NCBI GenBank assembly: GCA_035221665.1
Contig: CM069162.1
Location: 22,754,001 to 22,818,000 of the forward strand
Length of the DNA stretch: 64,000 nucleotides
Reading direction: 5' to 3'
Source of the DNA: Okamejei kenojei
Taxonomy: Eukaryota
Part shown: positions 655-57,561 of the stretch, piece after piece
Position numbering within the stretch: the stretch's first letter is position 1
Layout: each line of letters begins with the position of its first letter
Program-made: the position numbers and the translations under genes
Notes under the pieces: generated by a model
Told to the model about the DNA's origin: nothing
Database searches by the model: none
Seen by the model: the letters and a program-made list of their open reading frames with translations, nothing else

Positions 655-2554
655 ATAACCATATAACCATATAACAATTACAGCACGGAAACAGGCCCTC
701 TCGGCCCTTCCAGTCCGTGCCGACCATTTGTTTTCCCCTAGTCCCATCTACCTGCACTCAGACCATACCCCTCCATTCCCTTCACGTCCATATACCTATC
801 CACTTTACTCTTAAATGTTAAAATCGATCCTGCCTCCACCACTTCTGCTGGAAGCTCATTCCACACAGCCACCACCCTCTGAGTAAAGAAGTTCCCCCTC
901 ACGTTACCCCGAAACCTCTGTCCCTTAATTCTCATGTCATGCCCTCTTGTTTGAATCTTCCCTACCCTCAATGGGAAAAACGTATCCACGTCAACTCTGT
1001 CTATCCCTTTCATCATTTTAAAGACCTCAATCAAGTCCCCCCTTAACCTTCTGCGCTCCAAAGAATAAAGACCTTACTTGTTCAACCTTTCTCTGTAACA
1101 TAGTTGCTGGCACCCTGGCAACATTCTAGTAAATCTCCTCTGTACTCTCTCTATTTTGTTGATATCCTTCCTATAACTAGGCGACCAAAATTGTACACCA
1201 TACTCCAGAATTGGTCTTACCAATGCCTTGTACAATTTTAACATTACTTCCCTACTCCTATATTCAATGCTCTGATTTATAAAGGCCAGCACACCAAAGG
1301 CTTTCTTTACCACCCTATCTACATGCGATTCCACCTTCAGGGAATTATGCACAGTTATTCCTAGATCCCTCTGTTCCACAGCATTCCTCAATTCCCTACC
1401 ATTTACCATGTACGTCCTATTTTGATTTGTCCTGCCAAGATGTAGCACTTCACACTTATCAGCATTAAACTCCATCTGCCATCTTTCAGCCCACTTTTCC
1501 AAATGGCCCAAATCTCTCTGTAGACTTTGAAAATGTACTTCATTATCCACAACACCACCTATCTTAGTATCATCTGCATACTTACTTATCCAATTTTTCC
1601 ACCCCATCATCCAGATCATTGATGTACATGACAAACAACAGTGGACCCAACACAGATCCCTGAGGCACCCCACTGGTCACCGGCTTCCAACCTGACAAAC
1701 AGCCATCCACCATTACTCTCTGACATCTCCCATTCAGCCACTGTTGAATCCATCTTGCTACTCCGCCATTAACACCCAAAGATTGAACCTTCTTAACCAA
1801 CCTTCCATGGGGAACCTTGTCAAAGGCCTTACTGAAATCCATATAGACAACATCCACTGCTTTACCCTCATCAATTTCCCTAGTTACCGCTTCAAAAAAT
1901 TCAAGAAGGTTTGTCAAACATGACCTTCCAGGCACAAATCCATGTTGACTGTTCCTGATCAGACCCTGTTTATCCAGATGCTTATATATATTATCTCTAA
2001 GTATCCTTTCCATTAATTTGCCCACCACTGACGTCAAACTAATAGGTCTATAATTGCTAGGTTTATTCTTTGAACCCTTTTTAAACAATGGAACAACATG
2101 CGCAGTACGCCAATCCTCCGGCACTATTCCCGTTTCTAATGACATTTGAAATATTTCTGTCATAGCTCCTGCTATTTCTACACTAACTTCCCTCAATGTT
2201 CTAGGGAATATCCTGTCAGGACCCGGAGACTTATGCACTTTTATATTTTTCAAAAGTGTCAGTACTTCCTCCTTTTTGAATCTCATAGTTTCCATAGTTA
2301 CTCTACTTTTTCCCCTTAACTCACAGAGTTCAATTTCCTTCTCCTTGGTGAATACCGAAGAAAAGAAATTGTTCAATATCTCCCCCATCTCTTTTGGCTC
2401 TGCAGATAGCTGTCCATTCTGGTTCTCTAATGGTCCAATTTTATCCCTCGTTATCCTTTTGCTATTAATATAGCTGTAGAAACCCTTTGGGTTTACTTTC
2501 ACCTTTCTTGCCAAAGCAACCTCATATCTTGTTTTAGCCTTCCTAATTTCTTTC
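655..2554 (-). mobile_element. CR1-clade LINE (HER1-like), 5'-truncated, young copy: ORF2 reverse transcriptase, C-terminus, 3' UTR and (ATATGGTT)n tail
   Basis: ORFs 1582-2556, 1074-1673 and 738-1061 join into one RT ([45 protein letters not shown]). Only two lesions: a +1 frameshift in the T run at ~1594-1598 and a TAA at 1074-1076. Microsatellite tail ataaccatataaccatataac from 655. Confidence 0.95.
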
Positions 2555-2902
2555 ATATATATGATGAATATAGATGAATAAAAGAGATCACAAATTTATC
2601 TAGGATGCTACACTGTGCATTGCGTAATTCTGCTCAGTGCTTATTACAGAGTGCATAACCATTTAACCTAAAGTATTATTGCGGATCCTGCTTTTGAGAG
2701 GAATCATTCTCTGTAACTGGGTGTGAAGGTTAGTTCTGGGTTCAAGCTATTCTTCGGAGTCTGAACCAGTGTTGTAGTCTGGCGTTGAATGTCATTGCAC
2801 TCTTGGGTGCAATCTAGAACCTGATCAGAATCTGGAAAAGCACTTTAAACTCATGGTCTCTGACGGGCTTGCTCCTGCAGAATTTTAAAGCTTGCTAGGT
2901 CC

Positions 2903-14683: not shown

Positions 14684-16125
14684 CATAAGTTCATATGTTA
14701 TAGGTGCTGAAATAGGCCATTCCGTCCATCAATTCCAGTCCGCTATTCAATCATGACTGATCTATCTTTCCCTCCCAACCCCATCCTCCTGCCTTCTCCC
14801 CACGACCCCTGACACCCTTGCTAATCAAGAATCTGTCAATCTCCACCGTAACAATATCCATTGACTTGGCCTCAACAGCCTTCTGTGGCAATGAATTCCA
14901 CAGGTTCAGCATCCTCTGACTAAAGAAATCCCTCCTCATCTCCTTTCCAAAGTTACGTCCTTTTATTCTGAAGCTATAGCCTCTGATCCTGGACTTGCCC
15001 ACAAGTGGAAATATCCTCTCCATGTCTACTCTATCCAGGTCTTTCACTCCGTCTACGCTGCATCTGCACCCAGGATGAGTTTTTCCATTTCAGGTCATCG
15101 GAGATGTCCTCATTCTTTAGGAAACGAGGTTCCCCTCTTCCATTATAGATGAGGCTCTCACTAGGGTCTCCTTGATATCCTGCTGCTCCGCTCTTGCTCC
15201 CCCTCCCACCCATTCATAACAAGGACAGAGTGCCCCTTGTCCTCACCTTCCACCCCATCAGCCGTCGCATACAGCATATAATCCACCAACATTTTTGCCA
15301 TCTCCAACGGGTTCCCACTACTGGCCACATCTTCCCATCGCCACCCCTCTGATTTCCACAGAGACCTTTCCCTCTGCAACTCCCTCGTCAACTCGCCCCT
15401 TCCCACCCAAACCACCCTCTCCCCAGGTACTTTCCCCTGCCACCGCAGGAGATGCAACATCTGACTCTTTACCTCCTCCCTCGACTCCATCCAAGGACCC
15501 CAACAGTCTTTTAAGGTGAGGCGGAGGTTCACTTGCACCTCCACCAACCTCATCTACTGTATCCGCTGTTCCAGATGTCAACTGCTGTACATCGGCGAGA
15601 CCAGGCGCAGGCTCGGTGATCGTTCCGCTGAACACCTCCGCTCAGTCTGTCTTAACCTCTCTGATCTCCTGGTTGCTCAGCACTTTAACTCCCCCTCCCA
15701 TTCCCAATCTGACCTTTCTGTCCTGGGCCTCTTCAATTGTCAGAGTGAGGCACAGCGCAAATTGGAGGGACAAACAGCACGTTATATTTTGCTTGGGTAG
15801 CAAGTATGAACATTGACCTAACTTCAAATAGCCCTCTCTCTCCATCCCCTCCCCCTTCCCAGTTCTCCTACCCCTCTTACTGTCTCCAACTACATTCTAT
15901 CTCTGTCCCGCCCACTCCCCTGACATCAGTCTGAAGAGCGTTCTCGACCCAAAATGTCACCCATTCCTTCTCTCCAGAGATGCTGCCTGTCCCGCTGTGT
16001 TACATTTTGTCCCGCTGAGTAGACATTTTGTGTCCACCCAGGTCTTTCACTTTTCGGTAAATTTCAATGTGGACCCCTCATCCTTATAAACACTCAACGA
16101 GTACAGGCCCAGTGCCGTCAAACGC
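14684..16125 (-). mobile_element. CR1 LINE 3' fragment interrupted by a Penelope insertion
   Basis: ORF 14751-15047 (DRVDMERIFPLVGKSRIRG...FFSQRMLNLWNSLP); CR1 sequence resumes at 16052 after the duplicated target. Confidence 0.85.
15049..16037 (+). mobile_element. Penelope-like element, 5'-truncated: RT thumb/linker, GIY-YIG endonuclease and 3' terminal repeat with hammerhead motif
   Basis: KDRVPLVLTFHP...; FTCTSTNLIYCIRCSRCQLLYIGETRRRLGDR (GIY-YIG); 14-bp TSD CCAGGTCTTTCACT at 15035-15048 and 16038-16051; ctgaaga...aaaatgtc at 15931-15958. ORF is disrupted. Confidence 0.9.
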
Positions 16126-34639: not shown

Positions 34640-35340
34640 TGATGAATTGGTGGCAAGAGATGGCGGGTGGGGTGTTTAGGATGTTGAAAGGGTGCTGATA
34701 AGGCAGGCTGCTTTATCCTATCACTCACAGGATCTGTCTGGGTAATCTTGTACTTTGTATGCCAACAAAATCTCTTGTGTCACGCTTCTTTGGTGTCTGT
34801 GAAGTTGCGCTTATCTACGCAAGTAGACAGTATTTCTTCATACTTCTCACTGTGCCTTGCAGATGGTGGAAAGGCTCTGAGGAGTCGGGAGGTAAGATGC
34901 AAATAAATGGAAGATTATTGATGAAACAGTTAAAAATGGTCGGGCCAAGAATCATGTGCTGTGGCATTCCTATAGGAATGCCCTTTCACTGAAATAATTG
35001 ACTTCCAGCAACAGTAATCACAACTATCTTGCTTTGTAGAAGGTTTGGCTCAAAACAGTAGAGGCTTTTTCTCCTTTATTCCCATTGAATTCAGTTTTAT
35101 CAAAGCTCCTTGATGCTGGACAAGTTTCAATGTTGGCATGATGTTATGAACAGTCAATCTCACTTCAAGCCTGGAATTCATCTTCCATATTGCCAGGTAA
35201 TTGCCATCAAAACTTCTTGTGGAGAGGCAAGCCCAATTATGCAACATATATATCTTCATCATCACAGCAAGGATATGCGTGTCCCAATGAATGCGGCATT
35301 CGTTGACCTTGGCCCTCTTGTTTTGATAGCCCATAACAAA
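34640..35340 (-). mobile_element. Old CR1-clade LINE RT fragment
   Basis: Minus-strand remnant VQHQGALIKLNSMGI resembles CR1 RT VWHxGLLxKLxSxGI; related decayed pieces at ~12990-13170 and ~61640-62020. Confidence 0.5.
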
Positions 35341-49089: not shown

Positions 49090-50484
49090 CAGGCACATGC
49101 CGTGAGTCATTACTCAGGGTAGGCAGTCAGCCGGCTTTTAAAAAAATCTTAAACCGCGCATGCGCAGATTGTTCTCTTCGTAAAAAATAAACAATAAGTA
49201 ACAATTCAATTTTCCCAAGGCTTCTCAATCTCCTTCATTTTTTAATTACTGAATGGGTGGGGGACAGAGGATGAAGGCAGGTGGATAGATGGTGGGAAAA
49301 ATGGGAGCACGCCGGGATGTTGAACCAGTTGTCATCTTATTGAATGACAATACTAATTCAAGGGTCCAATTGGAGGGAGAGTTCCTTTCACAGCGTGTGG
49401 AGAGTCTGCGCCAGGGGTTGAAGATGCGAGAAGGCAGAAGTGTTGAGAAGGAGACAGTCAAAGATCATATCAGTAACTCATTCACTGCTGCCGCAGCGCT
49501 CCGGGCATGGACAGCAGAACTGGCCGCCACTTCCGGCAATAGAAACAGTTCGGGTCGACACCAGAACCGGCTGCCCTTCAGCGACTTCCGATCACCTCTG
49601 GCTGTGCTCTTCGTCTGAACATCTCTCACCTGCCGCTCGCCGGCTTCGCTCATGTCAGCCGCGTCCCGCAAATCCTTAAATTCCCACAGCCAAGTAACCT
49701 CTACTGGTCCCGTGAACGCGCTGTCGGAATTTAAAGATTTGCGGGAAGCCGGCCGGCGAGCGGCAGGTGAGAGATGTTCAGACGGAGAGCACTGCCAGAG
49801 GTGAGTGGGGACCAGCAGAAGGGGTTGAAATGTCCGTGCCCGGAGCGCTGCCCGGCCACAATAAAACCATATAACAATTACAGCACAGAAACAGGCCATC
49901 TTGGCCCTTTTAGTCCGTGTCGAACACTTACTTTCACCTAGTCCCATCTACCTGCACTCAGACCGGAGCGTGGCAAGTGGGTTACTGACCCCAATCCCCT
50001 CCTTCACAACGCGAGACTCCCTGAAACACTCTGAACAGAGCTCTCCCCCCACCCCGGGAAATACAGCATTTAAAAACATAAAGCACCAAGAAATGCACTT
50101 ACCACGTTATTGTTACACTAAGTCCATTCTTCACTCTTTGTTTCCTGAGATACTATTAAAATAATGGCAATCCATATTTGAAAATCCCGCCAAGAAACTC
50201 GCGCTGCGCATGCGCATCAGGCTGCTGCGCATGCGCAGTACTGCAAAGGCAGAATTTCTGCTGCCTTCAGCTTCCCTTGAAACTGATGGCTTCAGGCAGC
50301 GCTGACGGCACGTGGGCTGCACAGAGCTTCGCCTGTTGCAAGTGCTGCGGATGAAAGGCATGGAGAATTATGCCTACATAAGAGATCGATCTCTTAGATA
50401 GGCATAATTCTCCCACGCCTTTACTATTTATATTTAATAATTGCCATTTCATAATTTTAGTCAGGGTAGGCAGTGCCTACCTTG
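49090..50484. mobile_element. ~1.4-kb GC-rich non-autonomous DNA transposon with 8-bp TSD (hAT-like) and internal inverted repeats
   Basis: CTGTGGTG at 49082-49089 and 50485-50492; CA...TG termini; subterminal tcagggtaggcagt at 49114-49127 and 50461-50474; right TIR looks eroded. Confidence 0.65.
49862..49963 (-). mobile_element. CR1 3' tail (~100 bp), same subfamily as 655-2554, nested in the hAT-like element
   Basis: aaccatataacaattacagcac.gaaacaggcc...cctagtcccatctacctgcactcagacc is nearly identical to 666-764. Confidence 0.9.
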
Positions 50485-52093: not shown

Positions 52094-52408
52094 TTTTTTA
52101 GTTTTAGAGATACAGCGTGGGAACGGCCGTCTGATTTAGAGAAACAGACCCTTCGGCCCACTGAGTCCAAGCCGATCAGCCAGCAATCACCTGTACACTG
52201 TTCTATCCTACAAATTAGGGACAATCTACAGAAGCCAATTAATCTATAAACCTGCATGTCTTTGGCGTGTGGGAGAAAACTGGAGAAAACCCACGCTGTC
52301 ACAGAAAGAACTCTGCAAACTCTGTACTGACAGCACCCATAGTCTGGATCAAACCTGGGTCTCTGGCACTGTAAGGCAGCAACTCTACACTTGCGCCACT
52401 GTACAGCC
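52094..52408 (-). mobile_element. HE1-type V-SINE
   Basis: Full reverse copy with a partly duplicated tail. Confidence 0.9.
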
Positions 52409-53095: not shown

Positions 53096-53355
53096 GGCAC
53101 AGTGGCACATCAGTAGAGTTGCTGCCTTACAGCGCTTGCCATGCCAGAGATCTGGGTTCTATCCCGACTACGGGTGCTGTCTGTACGCAGTTTACAACCA
53201 CACTCCAAAGAAGTACAGGTTAATTGGTTTGGTACGTGTAAACAATTGTCTCTAATGTGTGTGTAGGATAGTGTTAACATGGGATTGCTGGTTGGTGCAG
53301 ACTCATGTGGGCCAATGGGCCTGTTTGCACGCTGTATCTCTAAACTAAACTAAAA
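53096..53355 (+). mobile_element. HE1-type V-SINE with internal deletion
   Basis: ggcacagtggc...agagttgctgccttacagc...gggcctgttt...ctaaactaaactaaa. Confidence 0.85.
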
Positions 53356-54031
53356 TAATATTTATAAAGGGTAGCATGGATCCTTATGAATACATAATAT
53401 TCAAGGAAAAGATACAAAATTAAAAGTACTAGAATTTTTTTACAATTGTGTCTATTAATGTACATTTTCCACATGGTTGGATTGAATTGGTGCCATATTG
53501 TTAGGGTTTAAGTGCTTGATTGGATGTTCATCTTTATAGAATCAAACCGTGTCATCACAATCCAGCCTTTTAGCATACAGCACTGGATGGATAATAATGC
53601 ATGATTGCCTTTAAACTGAAGAGTGATGACTATTTTAGCCATGGACCTTTTGAAAAGATTACGTTAATACAAAATCTGAAACTGAAAAATCTGAAAAGGG
53701 CCGAATGGCCTACACCTGCACCTATTGTCTGTTGTCTATAATTGCCTAACACTGAGGATTGGATGCCGTTTTCTGCTACCTTTTTCGTATTATGAATGTT
53801 TTACCCAAGATAGTTGCAAGCATTTCATTGTTTAGAGGGGGTCCCGTGAATGGCTTGTCTTGCTCTCCAAGGGGAGGTGATTACTCTCAGCCAAAGGTTA
53901 TTCTGTACTGTGATGGCCTCACACCTATCCCAACTAACAGGCCATTCATTCAAGAGAGTCAAGAATGTTTTATTGTCATATGTTCTGAAATGGAACAATG
54001 ACATTTTTACTTTGTAAATATATCCTTTACG

Positions 54032-54310
54032 TTAGAAATGCAGTGCGGAAACAGGCCCTTCGGCCCTCCAGGTCCGCGCTGACCAGCGATCACCCCGTGC
54101 ACTATTGTTATCCTACACATTCGTGCCAATTTACAATTTTATGGAAGCCAATCAACCTTCAAACTTGTACGTCTTTGGAGTGAGGGAGGAAACCAAAGCA
54201 CCCGGAGAAAACCCACAGTCACAAGGAGAATGGATAGATGGGACCCAGTCAGATTCGAACACGGATCTCTGGAGCTGTAAGGCAAGCAACTCTACCACTG
54301 GCCACTGAGC
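54032..54310 (-). mobile_element. HE1-type V-SINE
   Basis: Reverse copy. Confidence 0.85.
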
Positions 54311-54482: not shown

Positions 54483-54520
54483 ATCAAGACCAAAGATCCT
54501 ATAGGATCTTTGATCAAGAC
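54483..54520. mobile_element. 22-bp perfect palindrome inside an 8-bp TSD: probable DNA-transposon (P-superfamily-like) excision footprint
   Basis: ATCAAGAC-CAAAGATCCTATAGGATCTTTG-ATCAAGAC. Confidence 0.7.
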
Positions 54521-55531: not shown

Positions 55532-57342
55532 GTGCCCTGAACAATGACCCCTACCCTGACCAGGATTTATTAATCCTGTACAAATCCGGGTTCGAATCTG
55601 GGTGCGTTTGAACAAGTATCAATGCAAATATCTTGTAAGATCCTGTTAGCTCCCTCTCTACTTCCTACACACACTGCATTCTCAAACTATTTCAACTTTC
55701 CCAACTTGGCATTTGTTTATGTCTGTTTTTTGGATGGTTTGTTAATGGATTTACGATCTGTGCTTAACAACTTTTGAGACAACACAGTGAAGATCAGACT
55801 ACATGGTAGTACAACAAAATCATCAATCAAGCTCTGGATTTTAATTCAAAAGTATTTGGAGTGCTGCATTCTATTTTTTTTTAAAAGGGGCTTGGAGTTT
55901 TCAGACGAGCTGAGTTGCTGATTTCACTGGGATCTGCAGGCAACGGCCCTCTGACCACATTGTAGTAAACACGGTGCCTATCAATGGCACTGTTTCTCCT
56001 TTTGATTTGTAAAACTTTGTCCAGATGCAAACATGTCATCCTGTCAAAGATGAGATCACTGTACAAGCCTCTTGTTGACAGACTGTGAACAGTGCCTTGC
56101 AGGGCAGACTCCAAATCACAGTGGCGCTTTGAAGCTTGAGCAAGTCAACTTTTCATTCAGTGAAAACTGTGGATTGAACTTTAACCTGAGGAAAAGAATT
56201 CTAAAGAGGAATAGAGAATGTTTTAATATTGATGGGATGCTGAGGGCCTGTGAAATCCCGGAGAGGATCACGAGGACTGGATGTGTGCAGGAAGAGGGGA
56301 ACTGCTCAGATATGAGAAGGGGAAATGCAAAGCAGCTTGAAACATGGGCCCTATTCCCTTATTTTCATCCTGTAAACATGGACTGTTGCTTCTGCTGAGT
56401 AGTTTTTCTCCAACTTTGAGCTGCACATTGGAGAAAGAAAAAGGGTGAGCCACTAACCTTGCAATGCATGGGTCACTGATTCCACGAGAGACCCTTGGTT
56501 GTTCCCTTGCACTATAATAATAGCCTTTATCCTGGGTCAGATTGAGCTTGACACACTCGCACAACAAATCCTTTCATCTGAAAGCATTTTTAGAAATGCC
56601 ACTTACAAAGCAAATCTTAAGACAATGCCTGCCAATGAACTGCTGTGGTGTAGAAATGCAAGGCTCTGGTCTTCTGATTTTTGAGCTGATGGAACTTATT
56701 CTGATGAGAACTCAGATGGGATGAGTTTCGATTGTTCAGTGCACAGAGCTCTCTAATTTCATATTTCTCCTGGGCCAAAGAACAATGCTATCGCAAATAA
56801 ATCTGACTTTAGTTATCAATTCAATTTTATTTAAGGAGAAAATGTCTTTGTTGAAGAGTGTTTTGCATATTGTATGGTTGTTTGTCAAACAGCAACACCG
56901 TGATGCTGTCTACTCAGTTGCAATGTTTGTCAGTGACAGACATTTCCCAGAGCATCCTCCCTGTGAGAAAAAATATGTTCCATTCATTTCTCCCTTATTC
57001 ATTTCTTTCAGTGGGAGTTCATGGATTGTTGCGCTAGAGTTGGTTGGCCATTTGTGATTACTGAACATCCTGAACAGCTTCCCAGTAGGATTGGGGTATG
57101 TGTGTGATAGCAATCCAAAGCTTCAGAACATTCCATACTTGGCTGTTTTTTATCGAAACCAGCTGTAAGCTGCTTGCTTAACTTCAGAAATGTAGGTGCA
57201 CTTTTCAAAATGTGGTTCCAGTAATTTTGACAAAGTTCAGACACACTCAGAGTCGCATTAACTCAAACCATTGATGGTTTGCTCCAACTGAGTTTCGGTC
57301 AGTCGCCAGTTCCCTCAATAACTGAAAGCCCTGCAGCTGTGA

Positions 57343-57561
57343 CTTTAGAGATACAGCGTGGAAACAGGCCCATTGGCCCATCAAGTCCATGCCAACCAGC
57401 GATCAACCTGTACACTAACAATATCCTACACACTAGGGACAATTTACTTTTTTTTAACCAAAAACAATTAACCTACAAACCTGCACATCTTTTTTGAAGT
57501 GTGGGAAGAAACCGGAGCACTTGGAGAAAACCCACAGGGTCACAGGGAGAATGTACAAACT
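57343..57561 (-). mobile_element. HE1-type V-SINE, 3' part
   Basis: tttagagatacagcgtggaaacaggccc...gggagaatgtacaaact. Confidence 0.85.

What the first reader, a model, noticed from the sequence alone, without database searches (positions are those of the whole stretch)
54483..54520. Probable P-element-type excision footprint in a vertebrate genome
Seen: the 8-bp direct repeat ATCAAGAC flanks the perfect palindrome CAAAGATCCTATAGGATCTTTG. This equals two 14-nt ends, CAAAGATCCTATAG and CTATAGGATCTTTG, overlapped on their self-complementary CTATAG. Established: P-superfamily elements start CANRG and make 7-8-bp TSDs, and Drosophila P transposase leaves long 3' overhangs of TIR sequence at the donor site, so repair retains TIR stubs between the TSDs; hAT excision does not. 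Inference: a P/THAP9-like transposon excised here recently and the overhangs annealed through CTATAG, predicting many identical 22-bp scars genome-wide.
Basis: partly seen in the sequence, partly recalled or inferred. Interest (0 to 1): 0.72.

Follow-up and report, generated by a model that had tools for sequence, protein, structure and literature searches.

The report
P-transposon exit scars, parent found
This 22-base mirror-image insert is the joined pair of tips of a P-element-type jumping gene, whose full-length parent lies elsewhere in this genome; it is most likely an old scar left when the element cut itself out, and the lengths of such scars suggest a cut 18-20 bases deep rather than the fruit fly's 17.

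Summary
Confirmed: a perfect 22-bp palindrome between 8-bp direct repeats; 401 exact copies genome-wide. The parent exists: ~395-bp MITEs, 1.2-1.8-kb deletion derivatives and a broken 4,892-bp element with the same ends, an 8-bp TSD and all P-transposase domains. One repeat position occurs empty, with a 1,760-bp element, and with the 22-mer. Short remnants form discrete classes (14+14, 15+15, 20+15, 20+20) joined at palindromic microhomologies, some with templated or telomeric filler, like Drosophila P donor-site junctions. Retention stops at ...GAGC|AAGAT: 20 or 19 nt in this family, 18 nt in a sister family. Only one TSD-flanked remnant found genome-wide runs further. Excision and nick position are inferred, not assayed. 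The scan noted such scars before in this and other genomes, mostly without finding the parent.

The parts
54483..54490 (+). left copy of the 8-bp target-site duplication (ATCAAGAC); fits the family's G/A-T....A-C target preference
   Evidence: TSD profile of remnants and of full elements
54491..54504 (+). first 14 nt of one terminal inverted repeat of the P-type family
   Evidence: same start as MITE and deletion-derivative ends; the 4,892-bp element carries it with 1-2 substitutions
54499..54504 (.). self-complementary CTATAG shared by both stubs: inferred 6-nt annealing site
   Evidence: overlap shown; annealing is inferred
54499..54512 (-). first 14 nt of the other terminal inverted repeat
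54513..54520 (+). right copy of the 8-bp target-site duplication
   Evidence: unchanged in organisms C and D

Best explanation
The 22-mer is the two 14-base tips of a P-superfamily transposon end joined at their shared CTATAG between an 8-bp target duplication, and it most likely formed when the element excised and the cell rejoined the two single-stranded tails left at the donor site. Steps: (1) shown: the family inserts with 8-bp TSDs, and its full-length member encodes a THAP + P transposase. (2) Inferred from Drosophila: the transposase cuts one strand at the end and the other inside the TIR, leaving two identical 3' tails. (3) Inferred from remnant lengths: the tails ended at ...GAGC, i.e. 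20 and 19 nt in this family and 18 nt in a sister family. (4) Inferred: microhomology-mediated end joining annealed the tails at CTATAG (22 bp), GC (28, 32, 33, 37, 38 bp) or CG (30 bp), trimmed the flaps and filled in. (5) Shown: this scar predates the split from organisms C and D, and most identical 22-mers were later multiplied inside another mobile element.
For: Parent: the 4,892-bp element L080/L096 has both TIRs and a TSD with 1 mismatch. Its frames hit THAP, Tnp_P_element HTH, TNP-like RNaseH_N, GBD and RNaseH_C; the only PDB match is Drosophila P transposase 6P5A, E 1e-12. 12 of 12 complete MITEs among the first 30 end hits have 8-bp TSDs with 0-1 mismatch. Remnants: 52 of 60 flank-unique sites have an 8-bp TSD with 0-1 mismatch, with the same GT....AC preference as full elements. 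Discrete classes: among 39 flank-unique remnants longer than 22 bp, 20+15 occurs 9 times, 19+15 4 times, 20+20 4 times. Cut-off: 341 strand hits keep >=16 nt of an end. Only 8 hits run on into AGCAA; 4 of these read as 32/33-mers with one T>A change, 3 lack a TSD, and 1 is a true longer remnant. The 4-nt microhomology ATAG at positions 24-27 was never used exactly, although 2-nt GC at 19-20 was used often. Replicate: the sister family has three complete transposase elements with perfect TSDs and GAGC at position 18 on both ends. Its commonest remnant is 18+18-2, two are blunt 18+18, and none of 63 listed places contains GAGCAAG. Break-repair marks: templated or foreign filler in about 9 of 39 remnants (by eye); telomeric-repeat filler inside a perfect TSD. 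State series at one repeat position: empty, 1,760-bp full, 22-mer, and stubs of two other P-like families. The same junction classes appear in fly P{wa} repair (PMC2895639 Tables 1-3).
Against: No full or empty allele of this very locus was seen: organisms C and D carry the scar, and the runs of organisms A and B did not lay the locus contig. The state series is paralogous, at an insertion hot spot, not allelic. The cut position is read from repair products: a fixed 20-21-nt tail trimmed of its terminal A's would give a similar picture, and two remnants read as 21+12 or 20+12. One remnant keeps 33 nt (L293), so gap-repair synthesis also occurred. Exact-match patterns miss decayed remnants, and listings cover only the first contigs. 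The parent copy found is broken, so activity is untested.
Confidence: 0.85

Rival explanations
1. Aborted gap repair: after excision, the break copied a variable length from the sister chromatid's element and then annealed at a microhomology, so stub length reflects synthesis rather than the nick.
For: Known repair route for P breaks (PMC7776569 section 7). L293 keeps 33 nt. Internally deleted 0.3-1.8-kb derivatives are abundant.
Against: Sharp stop at GAGC in two families; the longer ATAG microhomology at 24-27 is unused. Within the size ranges searched (up to about 60 bp), almost nothing keeps more than 21 nt of an end.
Confidence: 0.07
2. Transposase-independent deletion: the TIRs formed a hairpin during replication and the interior was lost by slippage between the two CTATAG copies.
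For: CTATAG is both an inverted and a direct repeat between the ends, so one deletion gives exactly this 22-mer; the insert folds as a hairpin.
Against: Does not explain the 20/19/18-nt ceiling, the blunt 18+18 joins, the filler DNA or the telomeric insert. Predicts use of the longer ATAG repeat, which is absent.
Confidence: 0.04
3. The 22-mer is itself a mobile micro-MITE inserted as such (as recalled for the 80-bp mariner derivative MADE1).
For: About 40 independent sites, 18 of 23 non-host sites with a perfect 8-bp TSD.
Against: It lacks the internal sites that fly P transposase binds. Overlapping TIRs cannot pair as two ends (inference). More than ten different short forms each sit in their own TSD.
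Confidence: 0.02
4. This locus first carried the 28-bp scar (tandem CTATAG) and later lost one unit by slippage.
For: L131 has a 22-mer at a host site that normally holds the 28-mer.
Against: Only 1 such case among the 39 filter-passing 22-mers, against roughly 400 host-borne 28-mers (15-16 of the first 50 places, of 1,332). That is too rare to supply about 40 independent 22-mers. It would still be an excision scar.
Confidence: 0.02

Closest known systems
Drosophila melanogaster P-element donor-site end-joining junctions (Chan, Yu, McVey 2010, PMC2895639, Tables 1-3; passages read)
   Same: TIR stubs of both ends between 8-bp TSDs, joined at short or long microhomologies, blunt, or with templated insertions.
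   Different: The fly ceiling is 17+17; here it is 20/19 nt (18 in the sister family). The fly data are experimental products; these are fixed germline fossils, many amplified inside other elements.
D. melanogaster P element and its transposase (review PMC7776569, passages and section 7 read; PDB 6P5A)
   Same: Domain order THAP, HTH, split RNase H with GTP-binding insertion; 8-bp TSD; CA start; internally deleted non-autonomous copies.
   Different: Different TIR sequence, imperfect over about 34 bp. The copy found is broken. The inferred nick is 18-20 nt inside, not 17.
Zebrafish Pdre2 / THAP9 P-like elements (bioRxiv 10.1101/2024.03.22.586318, passages and section 6 read)
   Same: Vertebrate P-like element with TIRs, 8-bp TSD and deleted derivatives.
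   Different: Pdre2 has 13-bp TIRs starting CATACC and about 50 copies; this family has thousands of ends (6,353 strand hits). The main text gives no nick position for Pdre2; its supplementary Figs S6-S7, which I could not see, may bear on this.
BuT5 MITE of the repleta-group P element (PMC3698922, passages read)
   Same: P-mobilised MITE sharing only the terminal regions with its parent (here 79-82% identity over 178 and 109 bp).
   Different: BuT5 has 3-bp TIRs and 8-9-bp TSDs; the word 'footprint' does not occur in that paper.

Membership tests
P superfamily (parent element) | N-terminal THAP domain | tested here: met
   PF05485 split over two exons, E 1.6e-9 (over cut-off) and 0.026
P superfamily (parent element) | Split RNase H with GTP-binding insertion, HTH | tested here: met
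   PF21787 E 5e-38, PF21788 E 8e-6, PF21789 E 8e-8 (all over cut-off); PF12017 E 6e-4 (under cut-off); sole PDB hit 6P5A
P superfamily (parent element) | DDE catalytic triad | tested here: inconclusive
   Both aspartate motifs align with the fly enzyme. This copy has Q at the glutamate position; two other genomic copies and the relative P0001 keep E.
P superfamily (parent element) | TIRs starting CA and 7-8-bp TSD | tested here: met
   12 of 12 complete MITEs with 8-bp TSD; full element with 1 mismatch; one 7-bp TSD among remnants
P superfamily (parent element) | GTP-dependent transposition | not testable with these tools
   needs biochemistry
P-type excision footprint | Stubs of both TIRs between intact TSDs | tested here: met
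P-type excision footprint | Retained length bounded by the staggered nick | tested here: met
   bounded at GAGC
P-type excision footprint | Fly value of 17 nt per end | tested here: not met
   19-20 nt retained in 23 of 39 flank-unique longer remnants by the class table; 18 nt in the sister family
P-type excision footprint | Full-element ancestor at the same locus | tested here: inconclusive
   not seen at orthologous sites; seen at a paralogous repeat position
hAT (8-bp TSD alternative) | hAT transposase; footprints without TIR sequence (recalled) | tested here: not met
   no hAT domain among the Pfam hits of 8 element frames; remnants consist of TIR sequence
PIF/Harbinger (host element carrying most 22-mers) | 3-bp TWA-type TSD and Harbinger transposase | tested here: inconclusive
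   TA(A/T)-like flanks and long TIRs seen; the label is recalled, no transposase was sought

The most novel reading that the evidence does not exclude
Vertebrate P transposases in this lineage nicked the non-transferred strand at a sequence-anchored site, GAGC^AAGAT, giving 18-, 19- or 20-nt tails depending on the end. The fly's 17-nt stagger would then not be a fixed ruler, and hundreds of fixed germline scars would record both the cleavage geometry of several extinct P families and the germline end-joining spectrum of a cartilaginous fish.
Probability: 0.45. Interest if true: 0.7.

Novelty: new variant of a known kind. Interest (0 to 1): 0.56.

Why it matters
The long staggered cut is the hallmark of P-element chemistry, but in the papers I read it was mapped only for the fly enzyme. 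Here a vertebrate genome holds several P families with parents, MITEs and hundreds of exit scars whose lengths give a testable prediction of the nick site (18-20 nt, tied to a motif). That bears on how THAP9-type enzymes cut and on which DNA ends domesticated THAP9 might recognise. The scars are also near homoplasy-free presence/absence markers and a natural record of germline microhomology-mediated repair. The single locus has no sign of function.

Tried and rejected
Counting exact 22-mers as events: rejected, 14 of the first 15 lie in one host family. Recent excision: rejected. Polymorphism in organisms A and B: runs X4 and X6 did not lay the locus contig, so nothing can be said; organisms E-G were not examined. 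Intact family transposase: none seen. 39 RNaseH_N matches, longest open frames 53-566 aa; 30 loci were scanned for motifs; the 566-aa frame (L070) was not examined further. A host gene for the site: 16 window ORFs gave only LINE RT and a weak GIY-YIG hit; not identified. Names for the closest transposases: none on record. L318/L229 looked like a full/scar pair but the target sites differ. Two classic fly papers looked up by recalled ids were not held. Literature searches listed no paper on P elements or their footprints in cartilaginous fish; Repbase and Dfam could not be searched and may hold these families. The hairpin fold of the insert is trivial for a palindrome and was not used as support.

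Full report
Observation. The window reads ATCAAGAC (54483-54490), CAAAGATCCTATAGGATCTTTG (54491-54512), ATCAAGAC (54513-54520). The two 14-mers overlap on CTATAG. Chance is about 5e-7 per window. The window lies in a 2.76-Gb assembly. I take it for a cartilaginous fish from recall of its repeats and from unchecked scan notes; I did not test this.

Copies. The exact 22-mer occurs 401 times, control 0. Short end-to-end remnants of 22-52 bp with exact 11-bp ends number 1,332; other ends of the family give 6,353 strand hits. Most 22-mers are not separate events: 14 of the first 15 lie at two positions of one host element with long TIRs. Host copies without the insert, carrying a single TSD copy, exist (about 6 of the first 100 rows). 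A filter that excludes the host's typical flanks left 39 places, all examined. 16 were still host copies and 23 were not; of those 23, 18 have a perfect 8-bp TSD, 3 have 1-2 mismatches, 1 has a perfect 7-bp TSD and 1 has none. The filter passes roughly 55-65% of targets, so about 40 of 401 are independent (estimate).

Parent. The first 30 other end hits included 12 complete MITEs of 335-413 bp, all 12 with 8-bp TSDs (8 perfect, 4 with one mismatch). A Pfam search for the P-transposase RNase H gave 39 matches. Of 20 regions fetched, one (L080, 4,892 bp) is bounded by this family's ends with a 1-mismatch TSD. Its frames hit THAP, HTH, RNaseH_N, GBD and RNaseH_C in the fly order (order from PMC7776569 section 7), and the only solved-structure match is fly P transposase. 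It is broken by stops and frameshifts. Eight deletion derivatives of 1.15-1.8 kb have both ends and TSDs (picked with a TSD filter). Its closest database relative, P0001, is 77% identical over the RNase H N-terminal stretch and keeps the catalytic motifs. Three more transposase loci belong to a sister family: complete elements of about 10, 12 and 15 kb with perfect TSDs.

Remnant spectrum. 158 remnant sites fell into 73 flank clusters. Of 62 singletons I dropped 2 as host copies by eye. Of the 60 left, 40 have a perfect and 12 a one-mismatch 8-bp TSD, and the target profile (GT....AC) matches that of full elements. The 39 singletons longer than 22 bp (two more dropped because one search had selected them) fall into classes 20+15 (9), 19+15 (4), 20+20 (4), 18+18 (3) and rarer ones. 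Junctions sit on self-complementary GC, CG or CTATAG, or carry filler (about 9 of 39 by eye). Element ends continue ...GCGGAGC-AAGAT (20 nt to the C) or ...GCGAGC-AAGAT (19 nt). Genome-wide, 341 strand hits keep at least 16 nt (the first 100 rows, 83 places, were examined). Only 3 or, with a relaxed far end, 8 run into AGCAA. Four of the 8 read as 32/33-mers with one T>A change, three lack a TSD, and one (L293, 33+15) is real. The join at ATAG (positions 24-27), a longer microhomology than GC, was not found. In the sister family both ends reach GAGC at 18 nt. Its commonest remnant is 18+18-2, two separate sites are blunt 18+18, and none of the 63 places in the first 100 of 133 rows contains GAGCAAG (counted by hand). 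One remnant carries telomeric-repeat filler inside a perfect TSD. These are the junction classes of fly P{wa} repair, whose ceiling is 17+17 (PMC2895639 Tables 1-3; 17-nt tails also and in 10.1101/2022.05.24.493293, passages).

Full, empty and stub states. At one nucleotide of a high-copy repeat there are empty copies, a 1,760-bp element, 22-mers at three places (two of them a duplicated pair) and stubs of two other P-like families. A SINE position holds a 1,600-bp element (right flank matching), a 35-mer and a 50-mer, and is empty in the window. These are hot spots, not alleles: they show that stubs lie where full elements insert, not descent.

Age. Contigs of organisms C and D span the scar without a gap or substitution in it, while differing at 14 of 406 and 27 of 774 bases. 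The runs of organisms A and B did not lay the locus. MITE copies differ by 8.5% on average (12 copies) and scar TSD pairs by about 2.9% (biased low). The family looks extinct here; 'recent' is not supported.

Mechanism. Shown: P-type parent, 8-bp TSD, stubs, ceiling, filler. Inferred: staggered cut leaving two identical 3' tails; annealing at CTATAG, flap trimming and fill-in, probably by a polymerase-theta-type pathway (0.85). Bolder and less certain (0.45): the nick is tied to GAGC^AAGAT rather than to a fixed distance, because the ceiling moves 20, 19, 18 with the motif and blunt joins end on that C. A fixed 20-21-nt tail with trimmed A's is not excluded. The rivals (gap repair, hairpin slippage, micro-MITE, 28-to-22 slippage) are weighed in their own sections.

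Novelty. P-type donor junctions are known from fly experiments and P-like elements from zebrafish. Seven literature searches (listings only) showed no paper on this family or on such scars in cartilaginous fish; repeat databases were not searchable. Earlier scan notes report similar scars, mostly without a parent; they are not independent support. Verdict: real; a new variant of a known kind; interest 0.56.

Noticed in passing
L008:1320-2740, L010:1334-2785 (G000 C1): A ~1.4-kb host element with long TIRs and TA(A/T)-like flanks (Harbinger-like, label recalled) carries the 22-bp scar in both TIRs, and some copies carry it at a second, internal site. A scar in both arms suggests that one arm was copied from the other. 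It accounts for most of the 401 copies.
   Followed up: partly
L080:6260-6345; L077:1853-1890; L084:2690-2793: P elements carry stubs of P elements in their own 5' subterminal regions, several in tandem, each with its own TSD-like repeat: repeated P-into-P insertion and excision.
   Followed up: partly
L328 (G000:C27:295695-295741): Sister-family scar with telomeric-repeat filler between the two stubs and a perfect 8-bp TSD: telomeric DNA apparently captured at a transposon break.
   Followed up: partly
L076-L095, L325, L326: At least five related end types (CAAAGAT followed by CCTATAG, TATAGAG, ACTAGAG, GATAGAG, CATAGAG) point to several P families; those read far enough share GAGCAAGAT (GGGCAAGAT in one) and a CCACTC-like box just inside, a candidate transposase-binding site.
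   Followed up: partly
L195, L199, L205, L224, L237, L238, L247, L259: A cluster of remnants without TSD whose flanks are inverted copies of each other, possibly the product of joining ends from two different insertions.
   Followed up: no
window 50362-50413: 52-bp near-perfect palindrome (92%, no spacer) with no obvious TSD, 150 bp from two GCGCATGCGC motifs at 50204-50238 (NRF1-like, recalled); promoter-like region about 4 kb from the scar.
   Followed up: no
window 34963-34982: Perfect 20-bp palindrome centred on CCTATAGG, without TSD and not of this family.
   Followed up: no
window 52103-52402, 53099-53349, 54029-54290, 57342-57551: Four diverged copies of one short interspersed repeat around the scar; two 22-mers elsewhere (L136, L157) sit at one position of this repeat, which is empty in the window copies.
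   Followed up: partly
window 738-2595 (-) and 15465-15800 (+): Decayed LINE reverse transcriptase (RVT_1, E 1e-26) and a weak GIY-YIG fragment (Penelope-like, label recalled).
   Followed up: no
L070 (G000:C22:31468317): P-transposase match in a 566-aa open frame, the longest of 39; a sister-family-type scar lies about 2 kb away. Not checked for intactness or domestication. Several further copies cluster at C22:44.7-44.9 Mb.
   Followed up: no
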